This document shows, piece by piece, positions 1 to 37,111 of a stretch of DNA of 64,000 nucleotides (the stretch's first letter is position 1; every line of letters begins with the position of its first letter). The notes under the pieces are model-generated. The model did not search any database. It worked only from the letters and a program-made list of their open reading frames with translations, and was not told the DNA's origin. The position numbers and the translations under genes were made by a program. Source of the stretch: Heptranchias perlo (Eukaryota); NCBI RefSeq assembly GCF_035084215.1, contig NC_090325.1, positions 182,714,001 to 182,778,000 of the forward strand, written 5' to 3'.

Positions 1-858
1 GATGGTGCTCGAGCCAGCCGGGAGCAGCTCAGCATGAAGGAGGCTGCAGATGTCCACGACTACACATCAAGTGACTCTGAGCCTCCGTATGCACTGCTGC
101 ACAGAGAGGTCCAGGAAGCTGAGCCTCTGTCTGTAGACCCGGTGGCGAGGGTAGTGCCTTATGCGACGCATCTCTCTCTGCGGTTGCCCTCCCTCCTGCT
201 GTGCAGGTGAATGTATCACAGCACTGTGTTGTGGAGCTCCACGTGTCAGAGGTGGACGCGTGGCCGGTGATGCTGTTCGTCTTCCGAGGAGGTCATGACT
301 GCAGCTACGGCGGCCCCCATCCGGAAGATGTACATTTGAGGGGGTCCGCAAGGTAGGTAAATGTGTCTGCACACCGGGGTAAGTGTGCAAGTTTGTGAAT
401 TTTATTGTTAGGAGGAGGGTGGTGGAGGCCAAACTTTGTCCAAAGTGACAGAGTGGCCTCCTGCAATGAGTGAGGGTCTCCCCCCCGACCTGTCAAATGG
501 ACCTTTGCAGCTGCCACAGGCTGATGGCTGCAACATGTTCATTTCAACTGGGAGTGTTTCCCCCAGTACGGGAAACAGTCTCAGTTATTTGGAAAATCCC
601 ACCCCTCCTAAAATATCATGTTAATCAGGTCTGTTAACGACCTGAAGTACCTAAATAATTACCTTAAGTGGCATCCCGCCGGCTTTAATTGCCAGTGGGA
701 GTCCCACATGCGGGGGCTGCGCGCGCATGTAAGCGTGTCACTGAGGAACCCGGAAGTGGGCGGGTTGGAGCCGGGCCCCGGACCCGCCCTGGGAATCCCC
801 GATTTTCGGAGCCCCACCACCACGAACGCACCCGCTCAGGGGTCCGAAAATTGAGCCC
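1..858 (-). mobile_element. PIF/Harbinger DNA transposon, one terminus with a disrupted transposase N-terminus (truncated by the window edge)
   Basis: Minus strand reads RHYPRHRVYRQRLSFLDLSVQQCIRRLRVT*CVVVDICSLLHAELLPAG, resembling a Harbinger/HARBI1-type N-terminus with a premature TGA. The GC-rich block ends sharply at GAAAATTGAGCCC (TIR-like GGGCTCAATTTTC) followed by TAG. The other TIR is not visible. Confidence 0.75.
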
Positions 859-861
859 TAG

Positions 862-1084
862 GAATATCAGTTACTTCGAAAAAAATGGTCAGCATGATGG
901 CAAAGGAAATGCTTATCTTTGATATCGGGTTTCCCGTTATAAATGTTTCTACAGGATTTTCGATGTTAGCTGTTGACAAAAAGCATGATTGAAAATCGTG
1001 ATAGCAGGAAGTGAGGTTTGTGGACAGGAAGTCAGATTTGTGGACAGGAAGTCACAATGTACTCAAGATTTTTAATAATATAGA
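862..1084 (-). mobile_element. Probable Helitron 5' end fragment with a 20-bp subterminal repeat
   Basis: Minus strand begins A|TCTATATTATTAAAAATC, a Helitron-like TC start after a host A, followed by three ACTTCCTG units at 20-bp spacing. No 3' CTRR end is visible. Confidence 0.45.
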
Positions 1085-1274
1085 TTCCTATACCTTTAAA
1101 AAAATAGTTGCTGCTACTTTATACAACTAATTTCCCCATTGTACTTTGTAATATGTGTATAGGGGAGTATATTCGGGTACAGTTTGGGTATGACTGGTAT
1201 AAATAAATGTATACAAATTAAAAGATCGCTTTCAGACACAACAGAAAGATGGAATAATACATTTTCAAACTTAC

Positions 1275-1360
1275 ATTTTCTGTAGGACCTGCGCCATCAC
1301 AACTCCACTTGTCAAATCATCTATTTTCTTGCATGGCACCTGCACACCAAATGTCTGGAC
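1275..1360 (-). CDS. HOOK3: HOOK3 coding exon 2 (VQTFGVQVPCKKIDDLTSGVVMAQVLQKI)
   Basis: Polypyrimidine tract plus TAG acceptor (ttctttgccttttag), 86-nt exon, GTAAGT donor. Phase 0 joins exon 1. Matches human IQTFNVDAPCQTVEDLTNGVVMAQVLQKI. Gene continues beyond the left edge. Confidence 0.95.
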
Positions 1361-2382
1361 CTAAAAGGCAAAGAATAGAAACCATTACAGTTTATGCATA
1401 TCTACAGTTTACTATTTAATCCAAAAAAATCAGATTGCTCTGTTTTTCTGTATTTGCTAACATATTGGCATGTTATTTCTGTTGCTGTATGCTAATAAAA
1501 AATGTGCTACAATTGTAATACTGTTTTCTTTTGTGTAACTGATACTGTCTTTCCGAAGTTGGGAAAGGGGTCTCTGGGAGCATGTCAGTATTTGCAGGGG
1601 GTATCAGGAAGTGCATTAATACTTGAAGGAGGTCTCACACACAGAAAAATTTGGAAAAATACCAATTTGCACATAATGCATCTTTGATGTATAATTTGTT
1701 GACGCTATAGTGTTTTTTTTAAAAACACTAATCTACTAAATGGAGAAAAGTAAATTTAGCAACACAACAATGATTGAGAGCATGACTAAACTGATGGGCC
1801 ACTGGGTGTATTTCAACAGACAAATCCTCACTAGTTTACTTCTCCACAAATAGGACAATTGTTTCTCAGACATTTCAAAGACTCAAATTGACAGCTGTTT
1901 TAAGATCTTATAATGTTGAAACACTTGCTTTTCCTTTCAACCACCTTGCTAACTGCTTTTCTTTTCAGCATGTCCTGGTCAATAACTATCCCAGCATGTT
2001 TCAGTATTTCACAAAAAATGCACACAAAGTGAGATTTAAATACTGCTATATACTTTCGCACAATGGTTGTGACAGGATTTCTAATTAGTTCGCTCCCAGA
2101 ACATTTAGTTGGGTTGCTGAATTTGGCATACTAAAGAGCCAAAATTTAACAGTGAAGCCATTACAATTTGGGATACTTCCCAATGCTCTTCCATTCACGC
2201 AGTCTGCCATAGTCAGCTTCTACAGGCAAGCTTCCTATAAACCAAAATTTGACCTTACGTGCAAAATATCTGGAATTGCAGGCCACAGGGCAAAAGGAAA
2301 ACCCTTACACTGTTCAGGGATACACGAGAAATAGTACAGATATCACTGTATATTTTTGCAAACTGGCAGAAAAGCATATTAG

Positions 2383-3462
2383 ATAGATTTTTGTTAGATA
2401 ACGGTATTAAGGGATATGGAGCAACGGTACAAATGGAGTTGAGGTACAGATCAACCATCATCTAATTAAACAGTGGAACAGGCTCAAGGGGCTGAATGGC
2501 CTAAATAGGGAACAAGCAGACAAGTTGCCAAGGGACCTGGACAAGTCGGGATATTGGGCCACACATGTCATTTAATGTGGAGAAATGCAAAGACATGAAA
2601 TTGGGAAAAGAAAACAAAATCTGGAAGTACAAAACAGTTTACAGGTAAGCACACAGGAAAGAGATCTAGAAATATTAGTGGCCAATACCCTTAAACCATC
2701 AGCATTAGTGAAAGGGGAAAACAGCTATTTGGGATGTATAGTTCAAGGGAGTATGTCCCAAGTGATAATTAGTTTGTACAAACCACTGGTCCATATCCAC
2801 CTTGTGTGTTGCGTGCAGTTCAATGCAAAGCACCACATTCTGGCTTTGAACATGGTACAAAGATGGGGAACTAAGTTTAGAAATGGCATTGAGCACCTGA
2901 GTTACAAGGAGGCTATAAGGGAAGGATACTTGGGAATGTTTAAAAGTTGAATAAAAGCAGCGTAACAGTTAACTTATTGAGATGTTTAAGGGAACAGTAG
3001 TAGAAAGGTACAAAAAGCAATCAAAAAGGCTAATGGAATATTGGTCTTTATCCGAAGCAGGCTGGAATACAAAGGGGATGAAGTTATGCTTCAGTTGTAT
3101 AGAGCCTTGGTGGAGTACTGCGTTCAGTTTTGGGCACCACAATTCAGGAAGGATATATTGGCCTTGGTGGGGGTGCAGTGCAGATTCAACGGAATAATAC
3201 CAGGGAGACAGGGTTAAATTATGAGGTAAGGTTGCATAAATGTTGCTTGTATTCCCTTGAGTATAGAAGGTTGAGGGGTGATCTAGTCGAGGTATTTAAA
3301 ATGATAAAGGGATTTGATAGGGTAGATATGGAGAACTATTTCCTCTGATGGGAGGATCCAGAACAAAGGGGCATAATTTTGAAGTTAGCAGTAAGCCAGT
3401 TAGGAGTGAAATCAGGAAGCATTTTTTCCACACAAAGGGTAGTAGAAATCTGGAATTCTCTC
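2383..3462 (+). mobile_element. Cluster of degenerate CR1-type LINE 3' fragments
   Basis: Broken ORFs with LEYRRLRGDLVEVFKMIKGFDRVD and RTKGHNF...RKHFF, the CR1 ORF2 C-terminus. Confidence 0.8.
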
Positions 3463-3479
3463 CCCATTCCTCCTTACAA

Positions 3480-4425
3480 ACTACTGCCCCATCTCCAATC
3501 TCACTTTTCTCTCCAAAGACCTCAAATGTGTTGTCATCTCCCAAATCCATATTTGCATCTCTCTAATCAAGTTGCTGCCTATGCCTAACAGCCTAATCAA
3601 AGTCACAAATGATATCTTCTGTGACTGTGACAGTGGTGCATTATCCCTCCTCGACCTCGCTGCAGCCTTTAACACCGTTGATCACACTATTCTCCTCCAA
3701 CACCGCTTCCCTATTGTTCAGCTCAGTAGGACTGCCCTCGCTTGGTTCCACTCTTAGCTGATCACTGTGAGAGCATCTCCAGCAATGGCATCTTTGCTAC
3801 CATTGCACCGTCACCTTTGAAGTCCCCCAAGGTTCTATCCTTCATGCCCCTCCTCTTCCTCATCTAGATGCTGTCTATGGACATCATTCATAGACATGGG
3901 AACAGCTTCTACAGGAACGATGACCTCTCCAGACCATTTCACTGCCTCCGTTGTCAAATTGCTTCTCTAACATCCAGTCCTCGATGAGCTGCAATTTCCT
4001 CCAACACTGGTAAGACCACTGTTATGATCTTCAGCTCCCGTCACAAACTCCATACCCTCGCCACTGATTCAATCACCCCTGCCTGGCCAATATCTCTGGC
4101 TAAAGCAGGCTGTTCACAATCTAGGTGTTCTATTCAACCCCAAGCTGACATTTCCAACCCATATATTCTTCATAACAAAGACCCCCTACTTCCATCTCTA
4201 ACATCGCTGGCCCCCGTCGCTGCCTCAGCCCATCTGCTGCTGAAACCCTCATCCATGCCTCACCCCCATACTCTACTATTCCAATGCCCCTCCTGGCCGG
4301 CCTCTCATCCTCTGCCCTCTGTAAACTTTGGCTCATCCAAAACTCTACTGCCCATATCCTATCACACACTAAGTCCTGCTCATCCATCACCCGTCCTTGC
4401 TGACTTTCAATGGTTACTGATCCCA
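3480..4425 (+). mobile_element. L2-type LINE reverse transcriptase fragment
   Basis: LIKVTNDIFCDCDSGALSLLDLAAAFNTVDHTILLQ...TALAWFHS, typical of L2 RT; many indels. Confidence 0.8.
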
Positions 4426-7400
4426 AAGCCACAAATATATTTTTGTTGAATTCTTCTCAATAAAATGACTAATGCCTCTGTTTCTCTTTCAAATAAAATA
4501 AATTCTGTGAAATATGTAGCAGAAAATACCAAAACCATTGTATCTTGAAAAACACATTCAGAAAACTACTGTGTTGCAGCAAGAAAAATAAAACTTGCCA
4601 ACAAAAATGTAATGAAGTCACAAAAATTACAGGAGTGAAGACAGCCAGTTGGCCAATGTGCTAGTGCTAGCTATCTATAACAATCCCAATTCCCCACCCT
4701 GTTCCTATGTCTTTTATATGCTTCAAATATATAATCAATTCTCATTTAAATATTATAATTGTTGACTCAATAGCTACTTATGGGAAAAAAAATTTAACTT
4801 CCCCTTTAGTTCCCCCTAGAACTTGGCAATCAAATAGTGAAGTGCATACATGAATGTTTACAGTTGTTACAGGTGACTTCAATTTAGATTGGAAAATTTA
4901 TAAAGGGCACAATAGGAGTGAAAATATGACCCTTGTCAATGTTGGATTGTTACATGGAATAATTGGTCAAGGAACCCATGCAAGCATGGGCAGTTTTGGA
5001 CCGGATATTAAATAACAACCAGTAAATGGTAGAGCAGGTCAGAGTCAGAACAGCTTGGCAACAGTGACCACAATATGGTAAAGTCTAGGCTTGTAATGGA
5101 AAAGATGATGAATGCAAAGAAACATTAACTTTAGAAAGGCAGATTTTGAAGGGTGAGGGGTAGCTAAGGAAATCACACTGAATGGAACAGTTAGAAGGAA
5201 AAAGTAAGGAAGAAAAGTGGATCATGTTTAGAGATCCTATACAGAGTACAGAACATATGCATAACTCTAGAGATGAATGGTAACAGAGGGAAAAGGACAA
5301 TTAAAAGACTATTCCTAAAGTATAAAGCTACAAGCAGCATGGTAGACAGATGAATATGCAAAGGTAAAAGAGGTTACAAAACATGAGAATAGCAGGGAAT
5401 TTTAATTAAAAATTCTATAAAAACATATTCACAGCAAACAGACAAAAAGGAAACAATGGGGCCACTGAGAGCTCCCAAATATGACATGAAATCAAATGAT
5501 TATTAAGAGCCATGGGCAAGAAAAGGATTAAATGTATTTTAACAGCAGAGGCTGAATAACAGAATTTCATGCTTTTCCTATCTCTCCTAGAATGCAAACA
5601 AGGTCTCAAGCATCTGCATGCTTATCTCGTCCCTTATGAAAAAGCCGATACATGGTATTCCATCATATTGTGCTGGGACTTAAATGAAGTGGGTTTGGTG
5701 ACCTCGAATGAGGAAGGCAAGATATATGGGAAAGTGAAGGGAAATAGTACGAGATGAGGTCATCTCACCCACGTCAATCAATAGTATAACTTTACCCATT
5801 GGTCATATATACATATATAGTTTAGAGGTAGCTGCATGCCTTATAAGGACATTTAGATTAGTGATTTGTAGCTCAAAAGGGTATAAAAAGTGGCAAATTG
5901 AAACAGGAATTTGAGCTCAAGTGACATATAATCGATAGCCAGATCAGGTTTGCTTTATTTTTGTAGGTATTTTACGTTATTTGAAGGATTAAACTTTGTA
6001 TAAGTAATACTTTGCTTGTGTGTGCATTGTCTTACTGTCATTGAATGAACTAACATGACCAAAGGAGAGCAAATAAAGTGAAGAAATTCTTTGTTTCTGT
6101 GTTCACAAAAAAGACCATGGGCAGTCTTCCCAGCACAGAAGCTGAGTTTCTGGAAGGGAGGGTGCACAATGTTGAGTTCAGGATAATCCTTATCCTTCAG
6201 TTTAATGCAGGCATGTGGACTCAAGAGGTAGAGACACATCTGATTAATGATCTTTATTAATAAAAATACTAATACAACCCATTACATGTAGCGTTCATGA
6301 AATCGATGTCACTTACACTCATGAACAGTGTGTGGCAGCAGTAAGGAAAGCTAAACCAATCTTGAGATGTATAGAGGAATAGAGCACATATCCCAGGAGG
6401 CAGTAAGTTTGTGCAAGGTGCTGATATGGTGATACCTGGAATACTTTATACAATTCTGATCTAGGCACTAGAAGTGCAGAGAAGAACAACCACACTGCTA
6501 CTTAGCTTAAGGCATCTGAGCTATACTAAGCCTGCAATTGTTTACTCAGAAAAGATGACTCATGGAAGGTATTATTAAGATTCCTGAGGAAAGAGATGAA
6601 CTGAACCCTAATGATGTGCTTGAGATTCCCACAAACTCTAGAACCACTGGTGATTTAACTACTTTACAGAGGATGGTGAATGTATGGAATAGACTCTCCA
6701 TAGGAGGCAGATAGTGCAGAAAAATTTAAGGGAAAAATCTGAGGGAATGAGCAATTGATTAGTTATTGGGGCTGAGCAAATGAACTAGAGTATTTTCTGG
6801 TACTGTACATTTCTATCTTCCCAATGTTCATTCTTCTAGTGATAATCCTTCTTACTAATTCTTCATTAACATTCACCAATAATGGAAACAACCTTTCACT
6901 AATTGTCATCTCAAAAACTTTCAAATTATTAAAAACCTCTATTAGATCCCTTTGTGTTCCAGTGGAGAAAAACTCAATTTTTCAAGCCTCTCATTCAATA
7001 TTCTAACAGATCTGCATTGCACCCTTTCACTAGCTCTCATATTCTTTCTATAATAGCTACCCAGAACTGCAAGCAATCTCCAAATATGGCACAACCCAAT
7101 TCAAGTATTAAATTCTTGTACAAATTCAGTACCAGTTCCTTGCTTTTATATTTAAAGTCTCTATGTATAACACCCAGAATCCCAAAATACTTTTTAAGAG
7201 CACTCTTCCACCTGCACTGCCGTAGATTTCAACATTTTCAGAAGTTACGAAATGTCACTTTTTGTAACAGTGGAAAATTCTCCTTAAGTGCAAAAAGCAA
7301 GTCAATAGTAATGAATGGCTGCTGATGTAGTTCCAAGATGGATGATATGGTTCCCACAAACAAATCACAGTACTGCAACATCAGGCCTGCAATATACATG

Positions 7401-8184
7401 GACCAATAACAGTAAGAACTACTCACATGATTCTCCAGGAGCTCACACTGTTGACATTCAGAAATAACCCATTAAATAGGTGGAAGAAACATGCAGGTGC
7501 AGACTAGTGAAAACACTGCAAGCTTTAATGCTAGATGCTCACCTTATTATAATTACAAAATAATATTAATGAAGGTAGTGTTTATCATTCGGAATTCTTC
7601 ATGGATTGTTTCACCCATCAGTTAGTGTAATTGTGTCATATTTCAGTTGGGTTTGCTGTTTTTGATGGTTTTGGCTTGGAAAGCAATGGAACAGGATATG
7701 GACTATAGCTTGATTCACATCTACCAATGTTACCCTTTGGAACATGAAGATATTAACCTCAATGGTCTTACAGGGCCGTGTTCTCCAATATGTTAGCCAC
7801 TAGCCACGTGGTTAATTGGGAATCCGGATACAGCTAATTGCACTTTTGATTAGTAAATAAAAAATTAGTAATAGACACCATCGTTGGGTATGTGATCTCA
7901 ATACTCATTCATGTACTTTAACCATTTTGTGCGCTTGTTGGTAAAATGGTAAGACGAAAAGCAGAGTGTGCAAGTGTTTTTTGATCGTTGTATGTGCTTT
8001 ACTTCCTTGGTTACTGCTTATTGGTTATCTGCTAAAATGGTGTGTAACATGGGTTAAAAATGCCAGACCTCAGCACCATGGAAACACCAGCAACATTGTA
8101 TGGAGATGCTAGTGATAGATTGGGGTGGACAAATGTAAGCAATCTTACAACACCAGGTTATAGTCCAACAGTTTTATTTGAAAA

Positions 8185-8221
8185 TCACAAGCTTTCGGAG
8201 GCTTTCTCCTTCGTCAGGTGA
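8185..8221 (-). ncRNA. Minimal type I hammerhead ribozyme motif (outer element, sense)
   Basis: TCAC-CTGACGA-A-GGAG-aaagc-CTCC-GAAA-GCTT-GTGA: core boxes, helix I, helix II, and palindromic AAGCTT in place of helix III; AATAAA follows. Activity untested. Confidence 0.75.
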
Positions 8222-8469
8222 GTGTGGAATTCCTTGAAGGTTACCGCATATATAGTCAGAGAACAATGCCTGGTGATTACAGATAATCTTTCCAACTGCC
8301 CATCGTCAAGGCAATCAGACAGAGAGACAGTACATACAGGACTACTGAATATACGAACGGTCCGAACCCAAAGACAGAGATGATGTGGAGATGCCGGTGA
8401 TGGACTGGGGTTGACAATTGTAAACAATTTTACAACACCAAGTTATAGTCCAGCAATTTTATTTTAAAT

Positions 8470-8506
8470 TCACAAGCTTTCGGAGGCTTCCTCCTTCCTC
8501 AGGTAA
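8470..8506 (-). ncRNA. Minimal type I hammerhead ribozyme motif (inner element, sense)
   Basis: TTAC-CTGAGGA-A-GGAG-gaagc-CTCC-GAAA-GCTT-GTGA. Differences from the outer copy fall at the variable core N, the loop, and a G-U-compatible helix I position. Confidence 0.75.
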
Positions 8507-9253
8507 ATGTTCAGGAGCTCCTCGAAGCCTACGCATTTGAACATATAGAACAATACATGGTGTTTACAGAATGCCACTGCAACTGCCCGTTGCCAAGGCA
8601 ATCACCGTGTTCAGACAGAGAGGTGTCACCTGCAGAACCCCCGAATACACATTCAACAAAAAAACAAACAGGAAAAAAAAAGAGGCAGAAACATCCGGAA
8701 GGCAGAGAAAGCCAGCAAATGACCCATTATATTAAAAACAGATAACTTTTGTTCGCTGGTGGGGTTACGTGTAGCGTGACATGAACCCAAGATCCCGGTT
8801 GAGGCCGTCCTCATGGGTGCGGAACTTGGCTATCAATTTCTGCTCGACGATTTTGCGTTGTCGTGTGTCTCGAAGGCCGCCTTGGAGTACGCTTACCCGA
8901 AGGTCGGTGGATGAATGTCCATGACTGCTGAAGTGTTCCCCATGAGGACGGCCTCAACCGGGATCTTGGGTTCATGTCACGCTACACGTAACCCCACCAG
9001 CGAACAAAAGCTATCTGTTTTTAATATAATGGGTCATTTGCTGGCTTTCTCTGCCTTCCGGATGTTTCTGCCTCTCTGTTTTTTTTTCCTGTTTGTTTTT
9101 TTGTTGAATGTGTATTCGGGGGTTCTGCAGGTGACACCTCTCTGTCTGAACACGGTGATTGCCTTGGCAACGGGCAGTTGCAGGGGCATTCTGTAAACAC
9201 CATGTATTGTTCTATATGTATAAATGCGTAGGCTTCAAGGAGCTCCTGAACAT

Positions 9254-9290
9254 TTACCTGAGGAAGGAGGAAGCCTCCGAAAGCTTGTGA
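9254..9290 (+). ncRNA. Hammerhead motif in the inverted arm of the inner element
   Basis: Reverse complement of 8470-8506. Confidence 0.7.
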
Positions 9291-9406
9291 ATTTAAAATA
9301 AAATTGCTGGACTATAACTTGGTGTTGTAAAATTGTTTACAAAGACAGAGAGACAGAGACAGACCAGTTGTATTAAAAACAGATAACTCTTTTTTCGCTG
9401 GTGGGG

Positions 9407-10640
9407 TTACGTGTAGTGTGACATGAACCCAAGATCCCGGTTGAGGCCGTCCTCATGGGTGCGGAACTTGGCTATCAATTTCTGCTCGACGATTTTGCGT
9501 TGTCGTGTGTCTCGAAGGCCGCCTTGGAGAACGCTTACCTGAAGATCGGGGCTGAATGTCCTTGACTGCTGAAGTGTTCCCCGACTGGGAGGGAACCCTC
9601 CTGTCTGGCGATTGTTGCGCGGTGTCCGTTCATCCGTTGTCGCAGTGTCTGCATGGTCTCGCCGATGTACCATGCTCCGGGGCATCCTTTCCTGCAACGT
9701 ATGAGGTAGACAACGTTGGCTGAGTCACAGGAGTATGAACCATGTACCTGGTGGGTGGTGTCCTCTCGTGTGATGGTGGTATCTGTGTCGATGATCTGGC
9801 ATGTCTTGCAGAGGTTGCCGTGGCAGGGTTGTGTGGTGTCGTGGACGCTGTTCTCCTGAAAGCTGGGTAATTTGCAGTGAACGATGGTCTGTTTGAGGTT
9901 GGGTGGCTGTTTGAAGGCGAGTAGTGGAGGCGTGGGGATGGCCTTAGCGAGGTGTTAGTAGTCATCGATGACATATTGAAGGCTGCAGAGGACATGGCGT
10001 AGTTTCTCCGCTCCGGGGAAGTACTGGTTGCGTCCCGTGTTTGTCTTCTGAGGAGGTCTATGCGATTTTTCGCTGTGGCCCGTCGGAACTGTCGATCGAC
10101 GAGTCAAGCGTCATATCCCATTCTTACGAGAGCGTCTTTCAGCGTCTGTAGGTGTCCATCACGTTCCTCCTCGTCTGAGCAGATCCTGTGTATTCGCAGG
10201 GCCTGTCCATAGGGGATGGCCTCTTTGACGTGGTTCGGGTGGAAGCTGGAAAAGTGGAGCATCGTGAGGTTGTCTGTGCACTTGCGGTAGAGTGAGGTGC
10301 TGAGGTGCCCGTCTTTGATGGAGATCCGTGTGTCCAAGAAAGAAACTGATTCTGAGGAGTAGTCCATGGTGAGTTTGATGGTGGGATGGAACTTGTTGAT
10401 GTTATCGTGTAGTCTCTTCAGTGATTCTTCGCCTTGGGTCCAAAGGAAGAAAATGTCGTCGATGTATCTGGTGTATAGTGTTGGTTGGAGGTCCTGTGCA
10501 GTGAAGAAGTCGTGCTCGAACTTGTGCATGGCAATGTTGGCGTATTGGGGTGCGAATTTGGTCCCCATGGCTGTTCCATGTGTTTGGGTAAAGAACTGGT
10601 TATCGAAGGTGAAGACATTGTGATCCAGGATGAAGCGGAT
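9407..10640 (-). pseudogene. Disrupted Penelope-like RT / GIY-YIG endonuclease ORF
   Basis: RT motifs QTHGTAMGTKFAPQYAN and YTRYIDDIFFLW; Cys-rich linker PCHGNLCKTC (Neptune-type); endonuclease NVVYLIRCRKGCPGAWYIGETMQTLRQRMNGH; C-terminal GLNRDLGFMSHY. Contains stops and frameshifts. Confidence 0.9.
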
Positions 10641-10860
10641 GGGGTTACGCCACACGTAACCCCACCAGCGAAAAAAGCGTTATCCGTTTTTAATACAACT
10701 GGTCATTTTCGTCCGTCCGGACCGTTTGTATATTCAGTAGTCCTGTATGTTCTGTCTCTCTGTCTGATTGCCTTGACAACGGGCAGTTGGAAAGATTATC
10801 TGTAATCACCAGGCATTGTTCTCTGACTATATAAGCGGTATCCTTAAAGGAATTCCACAC

Positions 10861-10897
10861 TCACCTGACGAAGGAGAAAGCCTCCGAAAGCTTGTGA
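10861..10897 (+). ncRNA. Hammerhead motif in the inverted arm of the outer element
   Basis: Reverse complement of 8185-8221. Confidence 0.7.
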
Positions 10898-11396
10898 TTT
10901 TCAAATAAAACTGTTGGACTATAACCTGGTGTTGTAAGATTACTTACAATTGTATGGAGAGGGTAACTACCATTGTCGTCAGCTCGACCAATTGGAATAA
11001 CAGATTCAGGCCAGCAGAAGAAAGCAAGCCTAACCAATAATGAACACCTCCAAAAGGGCACGTCATGGCAAACAGCATCCAACTCTGAATGAAGAGGAGG
11101 GACAGGTCTGACACATTTCGTTGCGTGAGTCAACATTCTCAGCAATTACTCTGATGAAGTCAAAGTACCACTCGCAACTGTTGGACAAAAACCTAGAGGC
11201 TGCACTAAAATGTGCTGTGTAATAAATTCATGCCAGAATTCCAAACTTTGGAGGAAGTCTGCAAAATTTTGCACTAAATGGTGATAGATGTTTGTTAAGT
11301 AAGTATACATGTGGCATACATTTACCTGTATTATCGGTCAGGGGTTTTCTACTAAAATTAGTGCTTGTGGTTAAGACTGTGGCTAGTCAGCAAATT

Positions 11397-11985
11397 CATA
11401 AAATTGTTACAGCACGGAAGAAGGCCATTCGGCCCGTCAAGTCCATGCCGGCTCTCTGCAAGAGCAATCCAGCTAGACCCACTCCCCTGCCCTTTCACCA
11501 TAGCCCTGCAAATTTTTTCCCTTCAAGTACTTATCCAATTCCCTTTTGAAAGCCACAATTGAATCTGCCTCCACCACCCCCTCAGGCAGTGCATTCCAGA
11601 TCTTAACCACTCGCTGTGTAAAAAAGTTTTTCCTCATGTCACCTTTGGTTCTTTTGCCAATCACCTTAAATCTATGTCCTCTGGTTCTTGGCCCTTCCAC
11701 CAATGGGAACAATTTCTCTCTATCTACTATGTCTAGACCTTCATGATTTTGAATACCTCTATCAAATCTCCTCTCAATCTTCTCTGTTCTAAGAAGAACA
11801 ACCCCAGCTTCTCCAGTCTATCCACGTAACTGAAGTCCTTCATCCCTGGAACCATTCTAGTAAACCTTTTCTGCACCCTCTCTAAGGCCTTCACATCCTT
11901 CCTGAAGTGCAGTGCCCAGAACTGGACACAATAGTCCAGTTGTGGCCGAACCAGTGTTTTATAAAGATTCATCATGACTTCCTTG
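11397..11985 (-). mobile_element. CR1-type LINE 3' end inserted just inside the right hAT TIR
   Basis: LYKTLVRPQLDYCVQFW...RRLRGDLIEVFKIMK and RTRGHRFK...RKNFFTQRVVKIWNALP; same family as 19800, 21305 and 59661. Confidence 0.92.
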
Positions 11986-12794
11986 TATTGGACAACACTG
12001 TTACAGGGTCTGGGGCTGGCACTGCTAATTTCTCAGCCATGCAAATTTTGCATGATTCTGATTGGTTTAACAGTTGAGAATTTTGGGCAGGATGTAAAAT
12101 GGCATAATGTATGGATATGTACAATTCCACTTTACTGCAAAATTATTTTTTCCTATTTTCTGAGTTTAAAGTTCCAGTTATTGCTTCGAAGAGGGTGTCG
12201 AGGGAGGAAAAATGATTGAAAACATCATGATCAGAATCGACCTTCCCCTTTTTGAGGATCAGTATAATTTTTTAGACAGTAAATTTGGTGGTGTATTGAG
12301 TTAAATGTTGTTCCTCAACTCTAACAGCTGCCTTAAATTCCACTCAGATGAGAAGAGTCTCCTCTCTGATGAGAGGGAAGTGGATACAGCAAGCCAAGTC
12401 TGCATCAGTACAAAATTAAACCCTATAGTCCTGCTTGAAAACATCGAAGTAGCAAGATTATAGCATAATTCAGAGCTCATACATTATCAATTCTTCTGAC
12501 ATCTCATTTGCTGAAGTAAACTTCCCATAAGCCTGGGTGACTGGTCATCAAGCTCGCTTCTCTACCTTTGGACCTGCACAGCATTCATCCACACTCAGAA
12601 TACAATCTGTCTGTCTAATTAAAGGAACCTTTCGATAATCTCCTTCTACATTAACAATCATAACATTCCACACACCACAGTCGTTTATTGGTCTTATTTA
12701 TGCTAAGTAGAAGAAAAATAAATTAATGGAATCAAACCAGCTCCTATACTCAGAGGATGGAAATTAATACAACATACATCGGGTACTGAGTGTT

Positions 12795-13900
12795 CAGTTC
12801 TCAACTTCTTTGAGGAAGTGACAATTCAAGTGAACTGTAGAAAGCCCAAGCGGTGTACTAGATTTCCAAAGGCATTTGACAAAGTTCCATGCAAAAGCCT
12901 CAAAGGTTGAGCCCAAAGCAGTGGGGATCCAGGGTAAATCTTAGGAATGGATAATAAAAAGGCTGATGGGTAGAAAACAACCGATACTTGTTACAGGAGT
13001 TATGTTAGATGGGACTTTTATTGAGTGAGGTGCCCCACGGCTCAATGTTGGTTCAGAAACTCAATGCAAATTAGTCAAATTTACAGTCAATATCAAACTG
13101 GGAGCAGTAGAGGGGGAGCCAGCTTATAAATTACAAAATGAGTTGGACAAAATACTCATGTGGGTACACAGATGGCTGATGAAATTTAATGTAGACAAGT
13201 GCAAGTAACCTGCACATAGGAAGGGAACATGGGTGAATATATTCCATGAATCATGTTGAAATAACTAAGAATGAAGTTGAAAGAGACCTAGGAGTCTTGG
13301 TAAACTCAACGCTCAATATGTCCAACAAATGCAGAGCAGCAAATGAACAAAGCCAACAGAATGCTGAACTTTGTAGCCAAAACAGTAGACTATAAATCAG
13401 AGGAGGTAGTGATTATAATGTACAGTGCTCTGGTCAGACTGCACCTTGAGTAGTGTCCAGTTCTGATCACTGAGAAACAAATAAAACACTGAAGTGCTGA
13501 AAGCTGTGCAGAGAAGAGCCATGAGGCTGATCCCTAGTGTAAAGGGTCTGAATTATGAGGAAAGACTGGTGAAACTTGAACTTTTCATTCTGGAAAGGAG
13601 GCATCTGAGAGATGATCATATAGAGACATACAGATAGTTAATGGTATGGAAATGGTAAATCCAAAATATTACTTTAAATTAAACTGCCAATTAAGGGGAC
13701 AGAGGTTCAAACTACTAAATGATAAATTTAAGACAGACAGGAAGAAGTTTTTCTTCACACACAGAGTGGCCAACACACGGAATTGATCTTCAGCAAAGTA
13801 GTCAAAGCAAAAATCCTGGAATTGATGTAACAATGGAGGGAAACGTATAGTATTTCTTGACAGATGAATTAAGATAGGCCAAACAGCCTTCCTCATCTGT
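12795..13900 (+). mobile_element. Old CR1-type LINE RT fragment
   Basis: Degenerate DFQKAFDKVP (gatttccaaaggcatttgacaaagttcc), GVP(Q)GS and FFFTHRV motifs. Confidence 0.8.
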
Positions 13901-14077
13901 GGTGATCTATCTCGACCTATCATCTTAGCCTAAGTATAGGACCCATTCAGATCATTTCATCTCTCCTGTTGGCAGTAAGTTCACCAAATTAAATAAACTA
14001 AATAACTATGATTGCACCCAGACACCTAACTAGTTTGAGATAACCACATGATTAATGTACGATCAGCCACATGGTTG

Positions 14078-14305
14078 TTATTCACTCTCGGGATGTGGGC
14101 ATCACTGTCAAGGTCGGCATTCACTGCCCATCCCTAGATGCTCTGAGAAGGTGGTAATTGGCCATTCTCTTGAACTACTTACGTCCATATTCATAGCAGT
14201 TTGATACAACTCAGTAGCTTGGTAGGTCATTTTAGAGGGTAGTTAAGAGTCAACCATATCCGTGTGGGACTGGAGTCACATATAGGCCAGGCCATACCAG
14301 GTAAC
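14078..14305 (-). mobile_element. Short non-autonomous retroelement: LINE 5' UTR segment fused to the same LINE's 3' end
   Basis: Minus strand has ggcctatatgtgactccagtcccac...gactcttaac (like 32190-32280) joined to gttcaag...gggatgggca...gcccacatccc (like 35125-35220). Confidence 0.7.
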
Positions 14306-15104
14306 AATACTGTACCTCCAGTTTTCTGGGCAATATAGATCACTCCACCCAGACAAGTGGTGAGAGACTAGAGGCCTCCTACCTACTGAGTACTCCCCCA
14401 TAGGCTTTGTCAGCTTTCAAAACTCAACTTACTTGTTTTGAAATTTTAAAAATATATCAAATTAGAATGAAGAAAGAGTTTGTGTTAACAAGTGTTAACA
14501 ATTAGAGTCTGACAATTATCTTTTCTGTCAACAAAACACAGGTGAAATCATTAATTTGCTTGAATTTATAGAATACATTGAAGGTACATGACTTTTTCAT
14601 GTTGCTTTCCTGCAACTTTAAGTTGTAGTGGCTGTAAAACAAAAAGCAAGCAGTGGCCAAAACACATGACACAGGACTGTTCCATACCCTACTACATAGC
14701 AAATGAAATGGATTTTGGACCACTTACCAGTGCCCTGACTCTTTTATTTAAAATGAAGAGGAATGAAAATAAAAGTGATTAATGTTTTTGATTCATCCTG
14801 ATTTAAACAGCACTGTTATCAGAACTTGTTTAATTTGTGTTATGGAGCAATCAGACTTACTAATATCTATTGCTTCCTCTTTTCTTCCTTATGATTCCCT
14901 TGCCATTACTATTGCTAACAAGTGATCAAGACTTGACTTTAGTGCAATTTTTTTATGGACCACTTACCATTTCAATCAATGTACTGTGAATTTGGCTTAG
15001 CTGAGTATAATAAATACTTTAATTCTCTTTTTAAAAACTTAATTTAAAAGAAGAAGCATTATGAGCTTGAACCATTTAATAACTTCAGCACTAAAATGAA
15101 AAAG

Positions 15105-15545
15105 AAACAATCAGTTATGAAGTGGCTCGTCACAGCCTCAGCACATCTAAATTGCTTTACAACCAATGAAATATTTTTGAAATGCATTATTCTCATGTAA
15201 CCAAACACACTAACTTATCTGTACACAGCAAGGTCCCACAAACAGTAAACAAGAGGAATACTCATTTAATTAGTTTTTGACAGTATTGGTTGAGTGAAAA
15301 ATGTATTTCACAATACCAGGAGAACTCCTTGCTATTCTTTGAAAAGTGCCATGGGAAACACCGGAGCAAGCACACAGACAGAGCCACAGTTTGATCTATT
15401 TCAAAAAGCAGCACCTTTGGTAATACTGCATTCCCTCAATACTGCACTGAAATATCAGCCTGAATTACATGCTCAAGTACTCAAATGGGATTGATCTTGT
15501 AATTCAGAGGTGAGACTACTACCAACAGAGCTATGGTCACACTTG
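15105..15545 (-). mobile_element. Deu-domain tRNA-derived SINE (SacSINE1/AmnSINE1-like), degenerate
   Basis: Reverse-complement similarity to the fuller copy at 56959-57390 (ccaggagaactcct, agtgccatggg, cagcctgaattacatgctcaagt). Confidence 0.65.
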
Positions 15546-15724
15546 AATTGAAGGAGTTTGAATCCAAGGAAACAATAGAAAGAACATGCAATTATCAGCA
15601 ACATGACGTAAGTCTCTCCTCATATCCAAAAGGGAATAAATAAGTATATATTTGTAGTCAAAAATGTTCACTTGAAACTGCTTGGTGATCTCGCTTTGAT
15701 ACCATGAATTTAAATCTGCAGCCT

Positions 15725-16645
15725 AGTAATTTTCAAACGGTTCTCTCGACCCCTCCATTGCCTGTATTGTCAAACTGCTTGTCCAACATCCAGTCCCGGA
15801 TGAGGCAAAATTTCTTCCAATTAAATTTTGGGAAGACCATCATTAAATTGATTCCATCCCCCTCCCTGGTCACTGTCTAAAGCTGAACCAGAGTGTTTGC
15901 AACCTATTTGACCCCGACCCGAGCTTCCGACTCCGTATCCTCTCCATCACAAACACTGCCTACTTCCACCTCCGTCTCCACCCCGTCTCAACTTATCTGC
16001 TGCTGAATCCCTCATCCGTGCCTTTGTTACTTCCAGACTCGACTTTCCAATGCTCTCCTGGCCGGCCTCCCCTCTTCCACCCTTTGTAAACTTAAGCTCA
16101 TCCAAAACTCTGCTGCCCATATCCTAACTCGCACCAAATCCCATTCACCAATCACCCTGTGCTAGCTGACCTACATTGGATCCTGGTCCGGCAATGCCTC
16201 AATTTTAAAATTCTCATCCTTGTTTTCAAATCCCTCCATGGCCTCCCCCCTCCCCCCTCCCTATCTCTAATCTCCTCCAGCCCTACAACCCCACCGAGAT
16301 CTCTGCGCTCCTCCAATCCTGGCCTCTTACGCAACCCCGATTTTCATCGCTCCACCATTGGCGGCTATGCCTTCAGCTCTCTCTCCTCCTTTAACACGCT
16401 CCTTAAAATCTACCTCTTTAACCAAGCTCGGTCACCTGTCCTAATATAGAGTCATAGAGTTACACAGCACGGATAGAGGCCCTTCGGCCCATCGTGTCCG
16501 CGCCGGCCATCAAGCCCTGTCTACTCTAATCCCATAATATCTCCTTTATGTGGCTCGGTGTCCAATTTTGTTTGATAACACTCCTGCGAAGCGCCTTGGG
16601 ATCTTTTACTACGTTAAACGTGCTGTATAAATGCAAGTTGTTGCT
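15725..16645 (+). mobile_element. L2-type LINE 3' end, interrupted by an 87-bp CR1-type tail (16448-16534, TSD TAATAT)
   Basis: VLADLHWILVRQCLNFKILILVFKSLHGL L2 C-terminus; tail gcgccttgggat...gctgtataaatgcaagttgttgctg. Confidence 0.85.
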
Positions 16646-17373
16646 GTATATAAATGTAAGTTGGGGTTGTTGTCGTCGTCTAGATGGTATGCAGGGAGGA
16701 GCCCAACTCTAGCTCCGCCATCTCCAAGAGAAACAGAAAAAAGTGAAGGAACGAGAGAGAAAAAGGAGTGACGAAGTGAAGGAGAAAGGCACCGACTGCT
16801 AAAGAGACCGGTCAAAGTGGGGAGACAAGAAGAAATAAATCGAAGTGAAGGAAACAGGGAAGTAGACAGACACGAAAGTGAAGGCAGAGAGACAAATTAA
16901 GCTAAAAGACACAGGTGAAACAGAGAGGATGATGACAATGCATTGAAACAGCCCTGTTAAACAACAGCAAAGGAGATTGTACACCCGCGCTGTCAGCTGA
17001 CGCATCCCAGCACGGATGATGTTAGAGCCGGTGCCCACGCTCAGGCCCGCGATCGCTGTCAACTGTGCGGGCTCCGCAGAGGCTGAATACGGGAGAGTCA
17101 GCCTCACACACCGGGCAAACGCCGCTCCGCCACGTAAATGGCGGCCGTGTCATTAACCGCAGCGTCTGGCGACAAAAACAGCAGGGCCCGGCGGATGCCA
17201 GGTTCACTGCCCAGGGCCCGCCGTTAGACCCCGCCGGTGTGCGCTCATCACCGGCTTGCCTGAGGCGAGGCAGGTCAGCGTCAGGGGCGGTGTCAGGGCA
17301 CCGGACCGCTTCCACACAGCGACAGTCGGTACTTCCATTATGCCCGGAGCCTTTGACCTGACCGCGCACTTAC

Positions 17374-17418
17374 CCAAGTGAGCAGGCTCTCGCAGAGCTC
17401 GATCCGGTCCACGTTCAT
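17374..17418 (-). CDS. HOOK3: Hook microtubule-tethering protein 3, coding exon 1 (MNVDRIELCESLLTW)
   Basis: Minus strand reads ATG AAC GTG GAC CGG ATC GAG CTC TGC GAG AGC CTG CTC ACT TGG then a GTAAGT donor. Matches the HOOK3 N-terminus (human ...ERAELCESLLTW). Lies in a CpG island head-to-head with RNF170, as in human. Confidence 0.93.
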
Positions 17419-17639
17419 CTCTCTCGTCCGCTCGCACTGCTGCCGACAACAAAGAAGCCGCCGCCAACTGCCCGAGGTTCCACAACGTCACCACATTCCA
17501 CGTTCAGTTGGACCCGCCCGCCGCCAACTGCGCTTGCGCCACGCTGACCGAGCTGGCTATCTCGCTGCCTGAGTGATTAGAAAGAGCCAGAGGGCAGATC
17601 CACAGTTGGGGGGCGCCGATCTTTTTTTTTCCTCTTAGT

Positions 17640-17774
17640 GGCGGCAAGATGAATAAAAAATAGGAAGAAAAAGGGGGTGTTCGCGGCAGTAACCGAGACA
17701 AGAACAGTACAGAAAGTAACAAAGCTCAAGGTTGCTGAGCATATCGACGAAGTTGCTTCTCCTGAAAGGGACAG
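17640..17774 (+). other. RNF170: Putative first (5' UTR) exon of RNF170; start site approximate
   Basis: CAG|GTAACA donor at the downstream edge of the CpG island, oriented toward the first coding exon, which begins at an acceptor and so needs an upstream exon. No transcript evidence. Confidence 0.55.
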
Positions 17775-19387
17775 GTAACAGCGGCCTGCTAGTGCGAGCC
17801 TTAACACTCTGATATCGCAACCGTGCACTTTGGTTTGTTTTGTCATCTTTGAATATGATTGCCTCTGAGAATTGCTTCCGTCATACAGTTAAAAGTCGTA
17901 ATATACGTGTATCAGAAGAAGATGATGAGGGTTAATCGGGATGTTTTTAAAAAAAACAACACTGGATATATTCAGCAGGCGAGTCACTATGTGAAAAGAG
18001 AGGGGAAATTAACGTTTTGGATGTAGACCCTTTCTCGGAACTGGAAAGGACAAATCCCCCAAAACATTAATCAAGCTGGGAGGGCAACTGTTTTTTTCTG
18101 TTTTTATTTCGGATTTCCAATATTCACAGTTTTAACTCTGAAAGTAGTAATGTTCTAGCGATAACTTTTTTAAAAGTAAATTTCATTCAACATCCTCAGT
18201 ACTCTCTGCCTCCTGCAAAGAAGTACAGTAGATTTTGACAGGCTCATCTTAACCCAGTTTTCTTAAGGAGCCATCTCAGAAAATTATCTGGAGTATCATC
18301 AAAGAAAATTGAGTATTATACCTATGTTTAATTGTTCCTCGTGCAGTTGTCAAGACTTGGGGAATGTTAGTTACGTTTAGTAACAGTAACACTGACTACG
18401 TGGGGCTGTGTTTATTTTTCAACAACAAAACAGATCAATTTTTAAACCAAAATGAGTTAATCAATCTGAATATCTGGATTGGAATGCTTTGAGATGAATG
18501 ATGTTGATGGCAAGAAAGAGCATTTACAATTTTTTGTTTGCACCAGTGTAATTTTGTTTGCCTTGCTACACTTCCACTATTGTGCCCCAGTTAGCCCTCA
18601 ACATGAAAAGAACATCTCTTGTATCAGTCTAAATTGTCCTTTTTCTCACTGGCCATCTGTATGATGTTTCTAAGTAAGGTGGTCAATTTTTCCAAATCAT
18701 GGACAGCTTTATGTTGAGGACTTGCTAGGAACTGGATTGAGTCCCAGTTTCACTAATAACTGCACTGGACAGAACCATTCTGTTCATTATTACCCTCTGA
18801 TCATTATTGCCCTCTGTTTTGGCTACTTCCTGCTTGTTAAGAAACTTTTGTACTGGGAAAAAGGTGAGAGTTCATTTTGGGTATTGCAGGTTAGCATTGT
18901 GCACAAGCTTGTCACAATTATGTTGCAAATGACTTGACTCATGAAGCTTTTAGCACAAGCAGTAATCTTCCATTTGGGCTTTTTTTTGTTAGCCAGCGGA
19001 GAGAAGATAGGCTTTCACTTCAGGTCCCAAAGGAACATAGGAATTGCTAGATGAAAAAAGGCCAAAGTCCACCTTTTTCGCCTTCTAATGGAGTTGTTGA
19101 CTAATCATGGCAATCAATCGCTATCAATTAGCCTACAGCAGACCCTGACAAGAGGTGAGAAAAATCCCCAGTGGTGGAAAGCTTTGGGAACTGTAGATCC
19201 AAGTTACCTGTTCCTCCCAAGCATTCTACACTTCCCATATGGCATGTCTCAAATTACTCATATACTGTATCCCAAAATATTATTTTCTGAAAGAAATCTG
19301 TCTAATTTGCATTTGAATGAATGAATCAATACTATCTGCTTCCACCATCTTCCATGGGGACCTGTTTCCATAGATTTACCACCCACT

Positions 19388-19745
19388 CACTCACTGAAAG
19401 AGACAGAGAGACTTAGGGAAGGAATTCAGAGTTTAGGGCCTAGACGGCTGACGGCACAGCTGCCAGTGGTTGGGCGAAGGAAACGAAAGCTGCAGAACAG
19501 GCCAGAATTGGAGGAATGCAGAGTTGTCAAAGGGTCGTAGGGCTGGAGAAGATTAGAGACAGGACGGGGCAAGGCCATGGAAGGATGTTAACACAAGGAT
19601 AAATAAGAATCTTAAATTTGAGGTGTTAGTGGAGCCAGTGTAAGTCAGCGAGCACAGGGGTGATGGGTGAGCGGGACTTGGTGCTGATTAGAGTTTTGGA
19701 TGAGATCAAGTTTGTGGAGGACGGGAGGCCAGCCAGGAGAGTTGA
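19388..19745 (-). mobile_element. L2-type LINE fragment
   Basis: Reverse complement resembles 16060-16380 (cacaggggtgatgggtgagcgggacttggtgc, gagttttggatgag). Confidence 0.75.
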
Positions 19746-19799
19746 GTCTCAAATTAGTCATGCAACTACTGTGTAAGCAGTGCCATTTTTTTTATTTTA

Positions 19800-20517
19800 A
19801 TCATAGAATGGTTATGGCACAGAAGGAGGCCATTCGGCCCTTCGAGTCCATGCCGGCTCTTTGTAATAGCAATCCAGTTAGTCCCATTCCCCTGCTCTTT
19901 CCCCATAGCCCTGCAATTTTTTTCCCTTCAAGTATTTATCCAATTCCTTTTTGAAAGCCACGATTGAATCTGCTTCCACCCCCCTTTCAGGCAGCGCATT
20001 CCAGATCATAACTACTCACTGCATAAAAAAAGTTTCTCCTCATGTCTCCTTTGGTTCTTTTGCCAATCACCTTAAATCTGTGTCCTCTGGTTCTTGACCC
20101 TTCTGCAAATGGCAACAGTTTCTCTTTATTTACTTTATCAAACCTCCTCTTAACCTTCTCTGCTCTAAGGAGAACAACCCCAGCTTCTCCAGTCTATCCA
20201 CGTAACTGAAGTCCCTCATTCCTGGAACCATTCTAGTAAGTCTTTTCTGCACCCTCTCTAAGGCCTTACATCCTTCCTAAAGTGCGGTGCCCAGAATTGG
20301 ACACAATCCTCCAGTTGTATAAAGATTCAACATAACTTCCTGCTTTTGTACTCTATGTCTCTATTTATAAAACTCAGGGCCCCATATGCTTTTTTAACTG
20401 CTTTCTCAACCTGTCCTGCCACCTTCAAAGATTTGTGCACATATACCCCCTTTAGAATTGTACCATTCAGTTTATATTGCCTCTCCTCGATCTTCCTGCC
20501 AAAATGTATCACTTCGC
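19800..20517 (-). mobile_element. CR1-type LINE 3' end
   Basis: CEVIHFGRKIEERQYKLNGTILKG...KKAYGALSFINRDIEYKS; ends in a CR1-type tail (catagaat). Confidence 0.92.
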
Positions 20518-35100: not shown

Positions 35101-35225
35101 AGAACCTTCACCACACGGACTGCAGCGGTTCAAGAAGGCGGCTCACCACCACCTTCTCAAGGGCAATTAGACGATGGGCAATAAATGCTGGCCTCGCCTG
35201 CGACGCCCACATCCCATGAACGAAT
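32161..35225 (+). mobile_element. Near full-length APE-RT LINE, copy 2, including 5' UTR
   Basis: Same family as 25090-27878: NTWGLVPKLGEL...PDIAILTESYL APE start, GVPQGSVLG, MFADD, same 3' end; stops and frameshifts present. Confidence 0.94.
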
Positions 35226-36976: not shown

Positions 36977-37111
36977 AAAACAAAAGCAAAATACAGCAGA
37001 TGCTGGAAATCTGAAATAAAAACAGAAAATGCTGGGAATACTCGAAGTCAGGCAGCATCTGTGGAAAGAGAAACAGAGTTAACGTTTCAGGTCGATGACT
37101 TTTCATCAGAA
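36977..37111 (-). mobile_element. Solo terminus of a second Penelope-like family with a hammerhead motif
   Basis: Minus strand CTGATGA-AAAGTC-atc-GACCT-GAAAC-GTTAAC followed by ...cagatgctgcctgac...cagcattttctgtttttatttcagatttccagcatctgc. Related pieces at about 17955-18135, 28625-28835, 59190-59300 and 63835-63880. Confidence 0.6.

What the first reader, a model, noticed from the sequence alone, without database searches (positions are those of the whole stretch)
8185..8506. Nesting places two same-strand minimal hammerhead ribozymes 285 nt apart in HOOK3 intron 1
Seen: two 37-nt hammerhead motifs on the minus strand, which is the HOOK3 sense strand. Each has CUGANGA and GAAA cores, helices I and II, and palindromic AAGCUU in place of helix III. 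Their few differences preserve the fold. Known: Penelope-like elements carry minimal type I hammerheads with a palindromic helix III, proposed to cleave as dimers from tandem copies. Inference: each element here has only one sense-strand motif, so the nested insertion supplied a cis partner from a different subfamily. The pair could cleave HOOK3 pre-mRNA and release a 285-nt, retrozyme-like RNA. The inverted arms are transcribed earlier and could sequester the motifs, so folding might act as a switch.
Basis: partly seen in the sequence, partly recalled or inferred. Interest (0 to 1): 0.7.

Follow-up and report, generated by a model that had tools for sequence, protein, structure and literature searches.

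The report
Nested Penelope copies with passenger hammerheads
One copy of a very common jumping gene landed inside another in the first intron of the HOOK3 gene, leaving two of the family's standard self-cutting RNA motifs 285 bases apart, but each is predicted to be locked up by its own mirror-image copy in the gene's RNA, so the pair is likely an ordinary, inactive by-product.

Summary
Two 37-nt minimal type I hammerhead motifs lie 285 nt apart on the HOOK3 sense strand in coding intron 1. They belong to two Penelope-like retroelement copies, B nested in A, each with a 12-bp target duplication, inverted arm and one-sided tail. The pair is not special: the motif has about 33,000 genomic copies, 6 of 49 sampled neighbourhoods hold a same-strand pair within 700 nt, and three other independent insertions sit at the same site of an A-type element (291-307 nt spacing). 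A mixed double hammerhead is geometrically possible, but in pre-mRNA both motifs are predicted to pair 37 of 37 bases with antisense arms transcribed earlier (94 kcal/mol against the dimer), so this is not a plausible switch. Family copies break off about 9 nt before the core, 30 nt after a TATA-like box (520 against 51 at a control position), and show no excess at the cut site (69 against 43 and 213), so inserted copies likely come from uncut RNA. No RNA run could test the locus. This scan noted similar fold-back Penelope insertions in other genomes. Verdict: ordinary member of a known kind.

The parts
8185..8221 (-). Minimal type I hammerhead motif of outer element A (sense to HOOK3); predicted cut 3' of 8189
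   Evidence: 5,660 exact copies in genome
8470..8506 (-). Minimal type I hammerhead motif of inner element B (sense to HOOK3); predicted cut 3' of 8474
   Evidence: 2,557 exact copies
8189..8473 (-). 285-nt piece that a double cut would release (hypothetical)
   Evidence: no tandem arrays or spread copies of this junction found
8095..8106 (+). Left target-site duplication of A (12 bp)
   Evidence: a contig of another copy of the surrounding older repeat carries the left flank directly before 10949 (table 7)
8107..8368 (-). 3' end of A: 3' UTR downstream of the B insertion, TATA-like box, hammerhead, tail
8369..8380 (+). Left target-site duplication of B, at the edge of the (CT)n tract of the A-type 3' UTR
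8381..8941 (-). Element B, sense part: 5'-truncated, last 71 codons of the ORF, 3' UTR, hammerhead, 37-nt tail; 97% identical to an intact full-length copy (L066)
8536..8541 (-). Position of B's TATA-like box, changed at two letters in this copy
   Evidence: other copies carry the common letters at 8539-8540 (table 3)
8939..9342 (+). Inverted arm of B, no tail; holds the antisense hammerhead at 9254-9290
9340..9351 (+). Right target-site duplication of B
9352..10643 (-). Body of A: 5'-truncated, broken RT, Zn-finger-like linker and GIY-YIG-type coding region (residues 474-902 of the full-length ORF), start of 3' UTR
10644..10953 (+). Inverted arm of A, no tail; holds the antisense hammerhead at 10861-10897
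10949..10960 (+). Right target-site duplication of A
17374..17418 (-). HOOK3 coding exon 1, followed by a GT donor
   Evidence: recognised by recalled likeness to Hook N-termini
1275..1360 (-). HOOK3 coding exon 2 (86 nt, AG...GT)

Best explanation
Two truncated copies of an abundant Penelope-like retroelement family are nested in HOOK3 intron 1, and their two same-strand hammerhead motifs are likely inert passengers because each is predicted to base-pair with its own antisense arm in the pre-mRNA. Shown: the anatomy, copy numbers, target duplications and recurrence of such pairs. Inferred: A inserted first into an older repeat and B later into the edge of A's (CT)n tract. Each insertion was likely made by copying from two start sites about 37 nt apart, which gives one tailed and one untailed arm. 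The motif normally sits just behind the family's likely promoter and serves, if anything, the element's own cycle. Predicted: the intron folds into two long nested hairpins and is spliced out uncut.
For: Family membership: B is 97-98% and A's body 93% identical to a full-length copy with a 901-aa RT-containing ORF between two same-strand motifs 3,066 nt apart. Abundance: 32,916 matches to a degenerate 33-mer. Standard layout: 19 of 21 inverted insertions examined have one tailed and one short end, and 15 of 21 gave a duplication of 11-16 nt including overlaps. Same-strand partner within 700 nt for 7 of 60 anchors (5 with intact core) and in 6 of 49 neighbourhoods, against 0.007 expected per anchor. 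Three further independent insertions at the homologous site, spacing 291, 307 and 307 nt. Folding: both motifs pair 37 of 37 with their arms in 10960-8100; forcing the dimer costs 94 kcal/mol with B's arm and 9-14 without arms. No excess of copies starting at the cut site: 69, against 43 two bases upstream and 213 three bases downstream. Literature: low in vitro activity even as dimers (PMC4209133); cleavage needs the element's protein, and no RNA-seq ends were seen at the site (PMC11167929); PLEs tend to insert into or beside earlier copies (PMC6765202).
Against: Both cores are intact and the mixed dimer is fully compatible; without arms its penalty (8.9 kcal/mol) is the second lowest of 9 pairs compared (range 8.4-20.8). 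Nearest-neighbour folding ignores core tertiary contacts, proteins, editing and kinetics. A transcript starting just before B's motif would lack both arms. The 60 anchors are the first 30 hits of each exact motif on one chromosome end, not a random sample. The break-off counts use different letter sets and denominators and are confounded by microhomology. No RNA data for this locus.
Confidence: 0.85

Rival explanations
1. A short RNA started at the residual promoter just before B's motif (near 8511) carries both hammerheads without the antisense arms, forms the mixed dimer and releases a 285-nt piece at low level, without touching HOOK3 pre-mRNA.
For: Family copies break off about 9 nt before the core, 30 nt after a TATA-like box (520 against 51 at a control position; 12 or more of 41 sampled B motifs), which suggests a start site there. 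The arm-free dimer costs only 9-12 kcal/mol for RNAs starting at 8516.
Against: B's TATA-like box is changed at two letters in this copy. The promoter is inferred, not shown. Pairing probabilities for dimer helices are 0.004-0.22. Published rates are low or need the element's protein.
Confidence: 0.08
2. One reading: the pair cuts HOOK3 pre-mRNA co-transcriptionally, and competition with the inverted arms works as a switch.
For: Sense orientation, intact cores and compatible helices.
Against: The arms are made first and form duplexes of about 240 and 400 bp at 96-98%, 94 kcal/mol in their favour. The inserts are young, so there is no sign of selection on the pair. Such pairs are common in this genome.
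Confidence: 0.03
3. The locus affects HOOK3 through long double-stranded RNA (editing, altered splicing, dsRNA sensing), not through ribozyme cleavage.
For: Two nested near-perfect inverted repeats in a transcribed intron. The antisense arm reads as a pyrimidine tract followed by CAG at 9258 and came up as a candidate acceptor.
Against: 35 of 60 sampled motifs have an opposite-strand partner within 1.4 kb, so such hairpins are routine here. The hairpin lies 6.7 kb or more from either exon.
Confidence: 0.04

Closest known systems
Minimal type I hammerheads in the pLTRs of metazoan Penelope-like elements (Cervera and de la Pena 2014, PMC4209133; parts 1-2 of 4 read)
   Same: Short helix I, unpaired base between positions 9 and 10.1, G10.1-C11.1, palindromic 15.2-16.2 with no helix III, thousands of mostly single copies, opposite-strand pairs nearby, dimer model.
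   Different: Here the same-strand partner comes from a nested second subfamily at 285 nt, not from the element's own second pLTR about 3 kb away; helix II is 4-5 bp.
EN+ Penelope-like insertions with inverted 5'-truncated copy, one-sided tail and target duplication (Craig 2021, PMC8557442, introduction and passages; Arkhipova 2013, PMC3846280, passages)
   Same: Inverted arm, 30-40-nt tail on one end, target duplication, microsatellite bias; Pen2a is itself a secondary insertion into Pen3, and its pLTR has a putative TATA box and initiator.
   Different: Nothing structural; four independent insertions at one homologous 3' UTR site were found here, a detail not seen in the passages read.
Anolis Poseidon element PAc (Frangieh 2024, PMC11167929; parts 1-2 of 4 read)
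   Same: Two reverse-transcription starts that delimit the tail; uncut RNA is the main template; the enzyme may target its own pLTR; no RNA-seq ends at the hammerhead site.
   Different: In PAc the ORF starts inside the hammerhead; here the ATG lies about 120 nt after the core, at the end of the tail, and the protein has a Cys linker before the endonuclease (Neptune-like).
Animal non-LTR retrozymes (Li 2026, bioRxiv 10.64898/2026.07.22.740005; part 1 of 5 and passages)
   Same: About 300-nt spacing between type I hammerheads; pLTR-derived sequence.
   Different: Retrozymes are amplified head-to-tail repeats of one unit; here two 80%-alike halves from different subfamilies form a single junction with no sign of amplification.

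Membership tests
PLE minimal type I hammerhead | CUGANGA and GAAA cores, NUH triplet, helices I and II | tested here: met
   64 of 64 cells paired in 8 hand-picked variants, but no change on both sides of any pair
PLE minimal type I hammerhead | Unpaired base 9/10.1, G10.1-C11.1, palindromic 15.2-16.2 | tested here: met
   against PMC4209133
PLE minimal type I hammerhead | Self-cleavage as a dimer | not testable with these tools
   geometry compatible; no genomic trace of cut RNA as template
Rfam hammerhead families | Match to a curated covariance model | tested here: not met
   no hammerhead match at E up to 10 on 1-20000; expected for motifs without helix III
EN+ Penelope-like element | Single ORF with RT and C-terminal GIY-YIG endonuclease | tested here: met
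   901-aa ORF in L066 with RVT_1 at E 3.3e-10; the endonuclease was read by eye from the VVYLIRC...WYIGET motif, with no Pfam hit for it
EN+ Penelope-like element | pLTR partial tandem, inverted 5'-truncated copy, one-sided tail, target duplication | tested here: met
Neptune clade | [quoted passage not shown] | tested here: met
   PC...CKTC motif before the endonuclease; feature shared with Nematis per PMC8557442
Neptune clade | RT groups with Neptune in a tree | not tested
   no named reference RTs were fetched
Non-LTR retrozyme | Tandem repeats of one unit, each with a hammerhead | tested here: not met
   units 79-80% alike and from two subfamilies; the junction occurs 4 times in the genome, none seen as an array
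Non-LTR retrozyme | Circular RNA accumulates | not testable with these tools
   no RNA holder listed

The most novel reading that the evidence does not exclude
This family repeatedly inserts at one site in the 3' UTR of its own relatives (four independent events found), each time placing a promoter-proximal hammerhead about 290-310 nt upstream of a second one; such mixed pairs can cut as cis dimers from arm-free transcripts, release a circle-sized RNA and are the raw material from which non-LTR retrozymes are born.
Probability: 0.07. Interest if true: 0.55.

Novelty: new member of a known kind. Interest (0 to 1): 0.17.

Why it matters
As it stands it matters little: it is one of likely more than a thousand close same-strand pairs in this genome (rough extrapolation). 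Two side results are of use to people who study Penelope-like elements. Copies break off just behind a TATA-like box and not at the hammerhead cut site, which fits the in vitro result that uncut RNA is the template. Insertions also recur at one site in relatives' 3' UTRs. If mixed pairs did cut and circularise, they would give a concrete, testable route from pLTRs to retrozymes, and intronic pairs could then affect host genes.

Tried and rejected
Rfam scan: no hammerhead hit. Loose CUGANGA...GAAA pattern: not above chance. A direct genome-wide count of tandem pairs could not be obtained, so the rate rests on 60 sampled loci. RNA: no RNA holder listed; the four runs offered are contigs of one sample, RNA only by guess, dominated by other repeat copies (thousands laid), with no piece spanning the stretch and no table of ends, so they say nothing on expression or cleavage here. 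Idea that A's two arms came from different subfamily templates: rejected; the arms differ mainly by separate deletions of the (CT)n region, and the right arm's version had no close match among 40 of 1,383 candidates scored. Covariation of the hammerhead helices: none on both sides in 8 variants. A degenerate junction pattern was too strict and found only the window. Self-targeting against simple sequence preference is unresolved: of 8 exact tail-junction hits, 6 (4 events) lie in relatives' 3' UTRs and 2 elsewhere; one control site gave 0. Luense 2017 (PMC5785218) is not held; only its citation and a review's summary were seen. No supplements were read; those of PMC4209133 may list similar fish or shark motifs.

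Full report
Observation. The two 37-nt motifs are at 8221-8185 (A) and 8506-8470 (B) on the minus strand, 285 nt apart. They differ at three places, none in a conserved core base: a C-G to U-G pair in helix I, N7 and one loop II base. The flanking 187-222 nt are only 79-80% alike. A structure-aware scan finds 4 hits in the 64 kb, these two and their antisense copies at 9258 and 10865, and none in 200 shuffles; the loose core pattern is not above chance and Rfam finds no hammerhead. Coding exon 1 (17418-17374) and exon 2 (1360-1275) of a Hook gene flank the site on the minus strand. Exon 2 and a later exon match Hook3 better than Hook1, and the genome has three HOOK_N loci. HOOK3 intron 1, sense strand, is accepted; HOOK2 was not tested directly.

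Anatomy. Element A spans 8107-10948 between 12-bp duplications at 8095-8106 and 10949-10960, and B spans 8381-9339 between duplications at 8369-8380 and 9340-9351. Each has a 5'-truncated sense part that ends in hammerhead plus tail and an inverted arm without the tail. B sits at the edge of the (CT)n tract that intact A-type 3' UTRs carry. A's flanks are an older repeat, seen uninterrupted in a contig of another copy. A full-length relative (L066) has a 901-aa ORF with RT, a Cys linker and a GIY-YIG-type end between two same-strand motifs 3,066 nt apart. B is 97-98% and A's body 93% identical to it. The linker points to the Neptune or Nematis clade (PMC8557442); no tree was made. That the host is a shark-like fish is my recall of these repeats, not a call result.

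How common. Exact A motif 5,660 copies, exact B motif 2,557, degenerate 33-mer 32,916. I examined the first 30 loci of each exact search (60 anchors, 49 neighbourhoods, one chromosome end). 7 of 60 anchors have a same-strand partner within 700 nt, 5 with an intact core; 6 of 49 neighbourhoods hold such a pair; random placement predicts 0.007 per anchor; 35 of 60 have an opposite-strand partner within 1.4 kb. The same nested junction arose independently at least three more times: L070-L072 (one event, flanks 98-99% alike, 291 nt), L135 and L136 (307 nt each). Of 8 exact tail-junction hits, 6 are in relatives' 3' UTRs and 2 elsewhere; a control site gave none. The numbers are too small to separate self-targeting from a preference for this pyrimidine-rich sequence. 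19 of 21 inverted insertions have one tailed and one short end, and 15 of 21 gave a duplication. The 3' ends fall in two classes, about 85 and about 122 nt after the first core base, matching the two start sites described for the Anolis element (PMC11167929).

Could the pair cut? All 20 pairs of the B-A double hammerhead are standard or G-U. Without arms the dimer lies 9-14 kcal/mol above the minimum-energy fold, with key pair probabilities of 0.0-0.22 depending on the ends chosen. With B's arm it lies 94 kcal/mol above, and in the whole 10960-8100 transcript both motifs pair 37 of 37 with their antisense copies. The arms are transcribed first. These models omit tertiary contacts, proteins and kinetics. 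Published minimal PLE hammerheads cut weakly even as dimers (PMC4209133), and the Anolis one needs the element's protein and leaves no RNA-seq ends. The triplet here is CUU, a weaker one by my recall.

Traces of cleavage in the genome. If cut RNA were a common template, copies should begin at the cut. B-type copies that break off exactly there number 69, against 43 two bases upstream and 213 three bases downstream; the 30 of 69 inspected are mixed truncations, inversion joints and a few deletions. Copies instead break off just upstream of the core: 520 at position -9 against 51 at -16. About a fifth of the first 100 listed carry a letter that may mark another subfamily, and many joints use a 2-nt microhomology, so the excess is approximate. 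In the sample, 26 of 41 B motifs match for 12 nt or less upstream, four of which are other subfamilies, and 20 of 38 A motifs for 16 nt or less. A TATA-like box lies 36-39 nt before the core in both subfamilies. Inference: the family's RNA starts about 9 nt before the hammerhead and is copied uncut. A putative TATA box in pLTRs is already described (PMC3846280), while Drosophila Penelope has a TATA-less promoter (PMC2377424, abstract). In the window, B's box is changed at two letters, which weakens the one route to an arm-free transcript of both motifs.

RNA evidence. None usable: no RNA holder was listed, and the contigs laid are other repeat copies.

Comparison with what is known. Minimal hammerheads in pLTRs, the dimer model, inverted arms, tails and insertion into or beside earlier copies are all published (PMC4209133; PMC8557442; PMC3846280; PMC6765202). 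Retrozymes are amplified tandem repeats derived from pLTRs (bioRxiv 10.64898/2026.07.22.740005); this locus fails that test. Five literature searches listed no paper on nested mixed-subfamily hammerhead pairs or on the break-off profile; I read only the parts named and the library lacks most subscription papers. This scan has unreviewed notes on similar fold-back insertions in other genomes and none for these words in this genome. One note reports ends at the cut site in another genome; I do not see that in this family.

Verdict. A real, correctly described feature that is an ordinary product of a young, abundant Penelope-like family. Most likely the motifs are inert in HOOK3 pre-mRNA (0.85). 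Interest 0.17.

Noticed in passing
genome-wide; window 8511 and 9219-9249: Family copies break off about 9 nt before the hammerhead core, 30 nt after a TATA-like box, and not at the cut site, which suggests copying of uncut RNA up to its start.
   Followed up: partly
L066 (G000:C1:42351000-42357500), 1685-4441 minus: Full-length element with an open 901-aa ORF in partial tandem with a second copy; the B subfamily is young.
   Followed up: partly
L063 1540-2100 (G000:C1, near 66,240,700): Head-to-tail 256-nt pair from one subfamily (ORF start joined to the TATA-like box, hammerhead, tail), closer to a retrozyme-like dimer than the window's pair.
   Followed up: partly
L070-L072 (C1392, C284), L135 (C30), L136 (C6): Independent insertions at the same 3' UTR site as in the window; L070-L072 lie beside a satellite-like array and are duplicates of one event.
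   Followed up: yes
window 8748-8907 and 9390-9549: 97% identical ORF ends of B and A although their 3' UTRs are about 80% alike, suggesting recombination between subfamilies.
   Followed up: no
window 9258 minus strand: The antisense hammerhead reads as a pyrimidine tract plus CAG, a possible cryptic splice acceptor in the HOOK3 sense direction.
   Followed up: no
L062 3043-3084 (G000:C1, near 182,697,060): Another short inverted pair of the same family about 170 nt from a later HOOK3 exon.
   Followed up: no
window 25125-27816 and 32312-35170, plus strand: Two broken LINE-like copies with endonuclease- and RT-like frames (recognised by eye).
   Followed up: no
window 37085-37109 minus: A CUGAUGA...GAAA match that did not pass the strict hammerhead scan; possibly a decayed motif of another family.
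   Followed up: no
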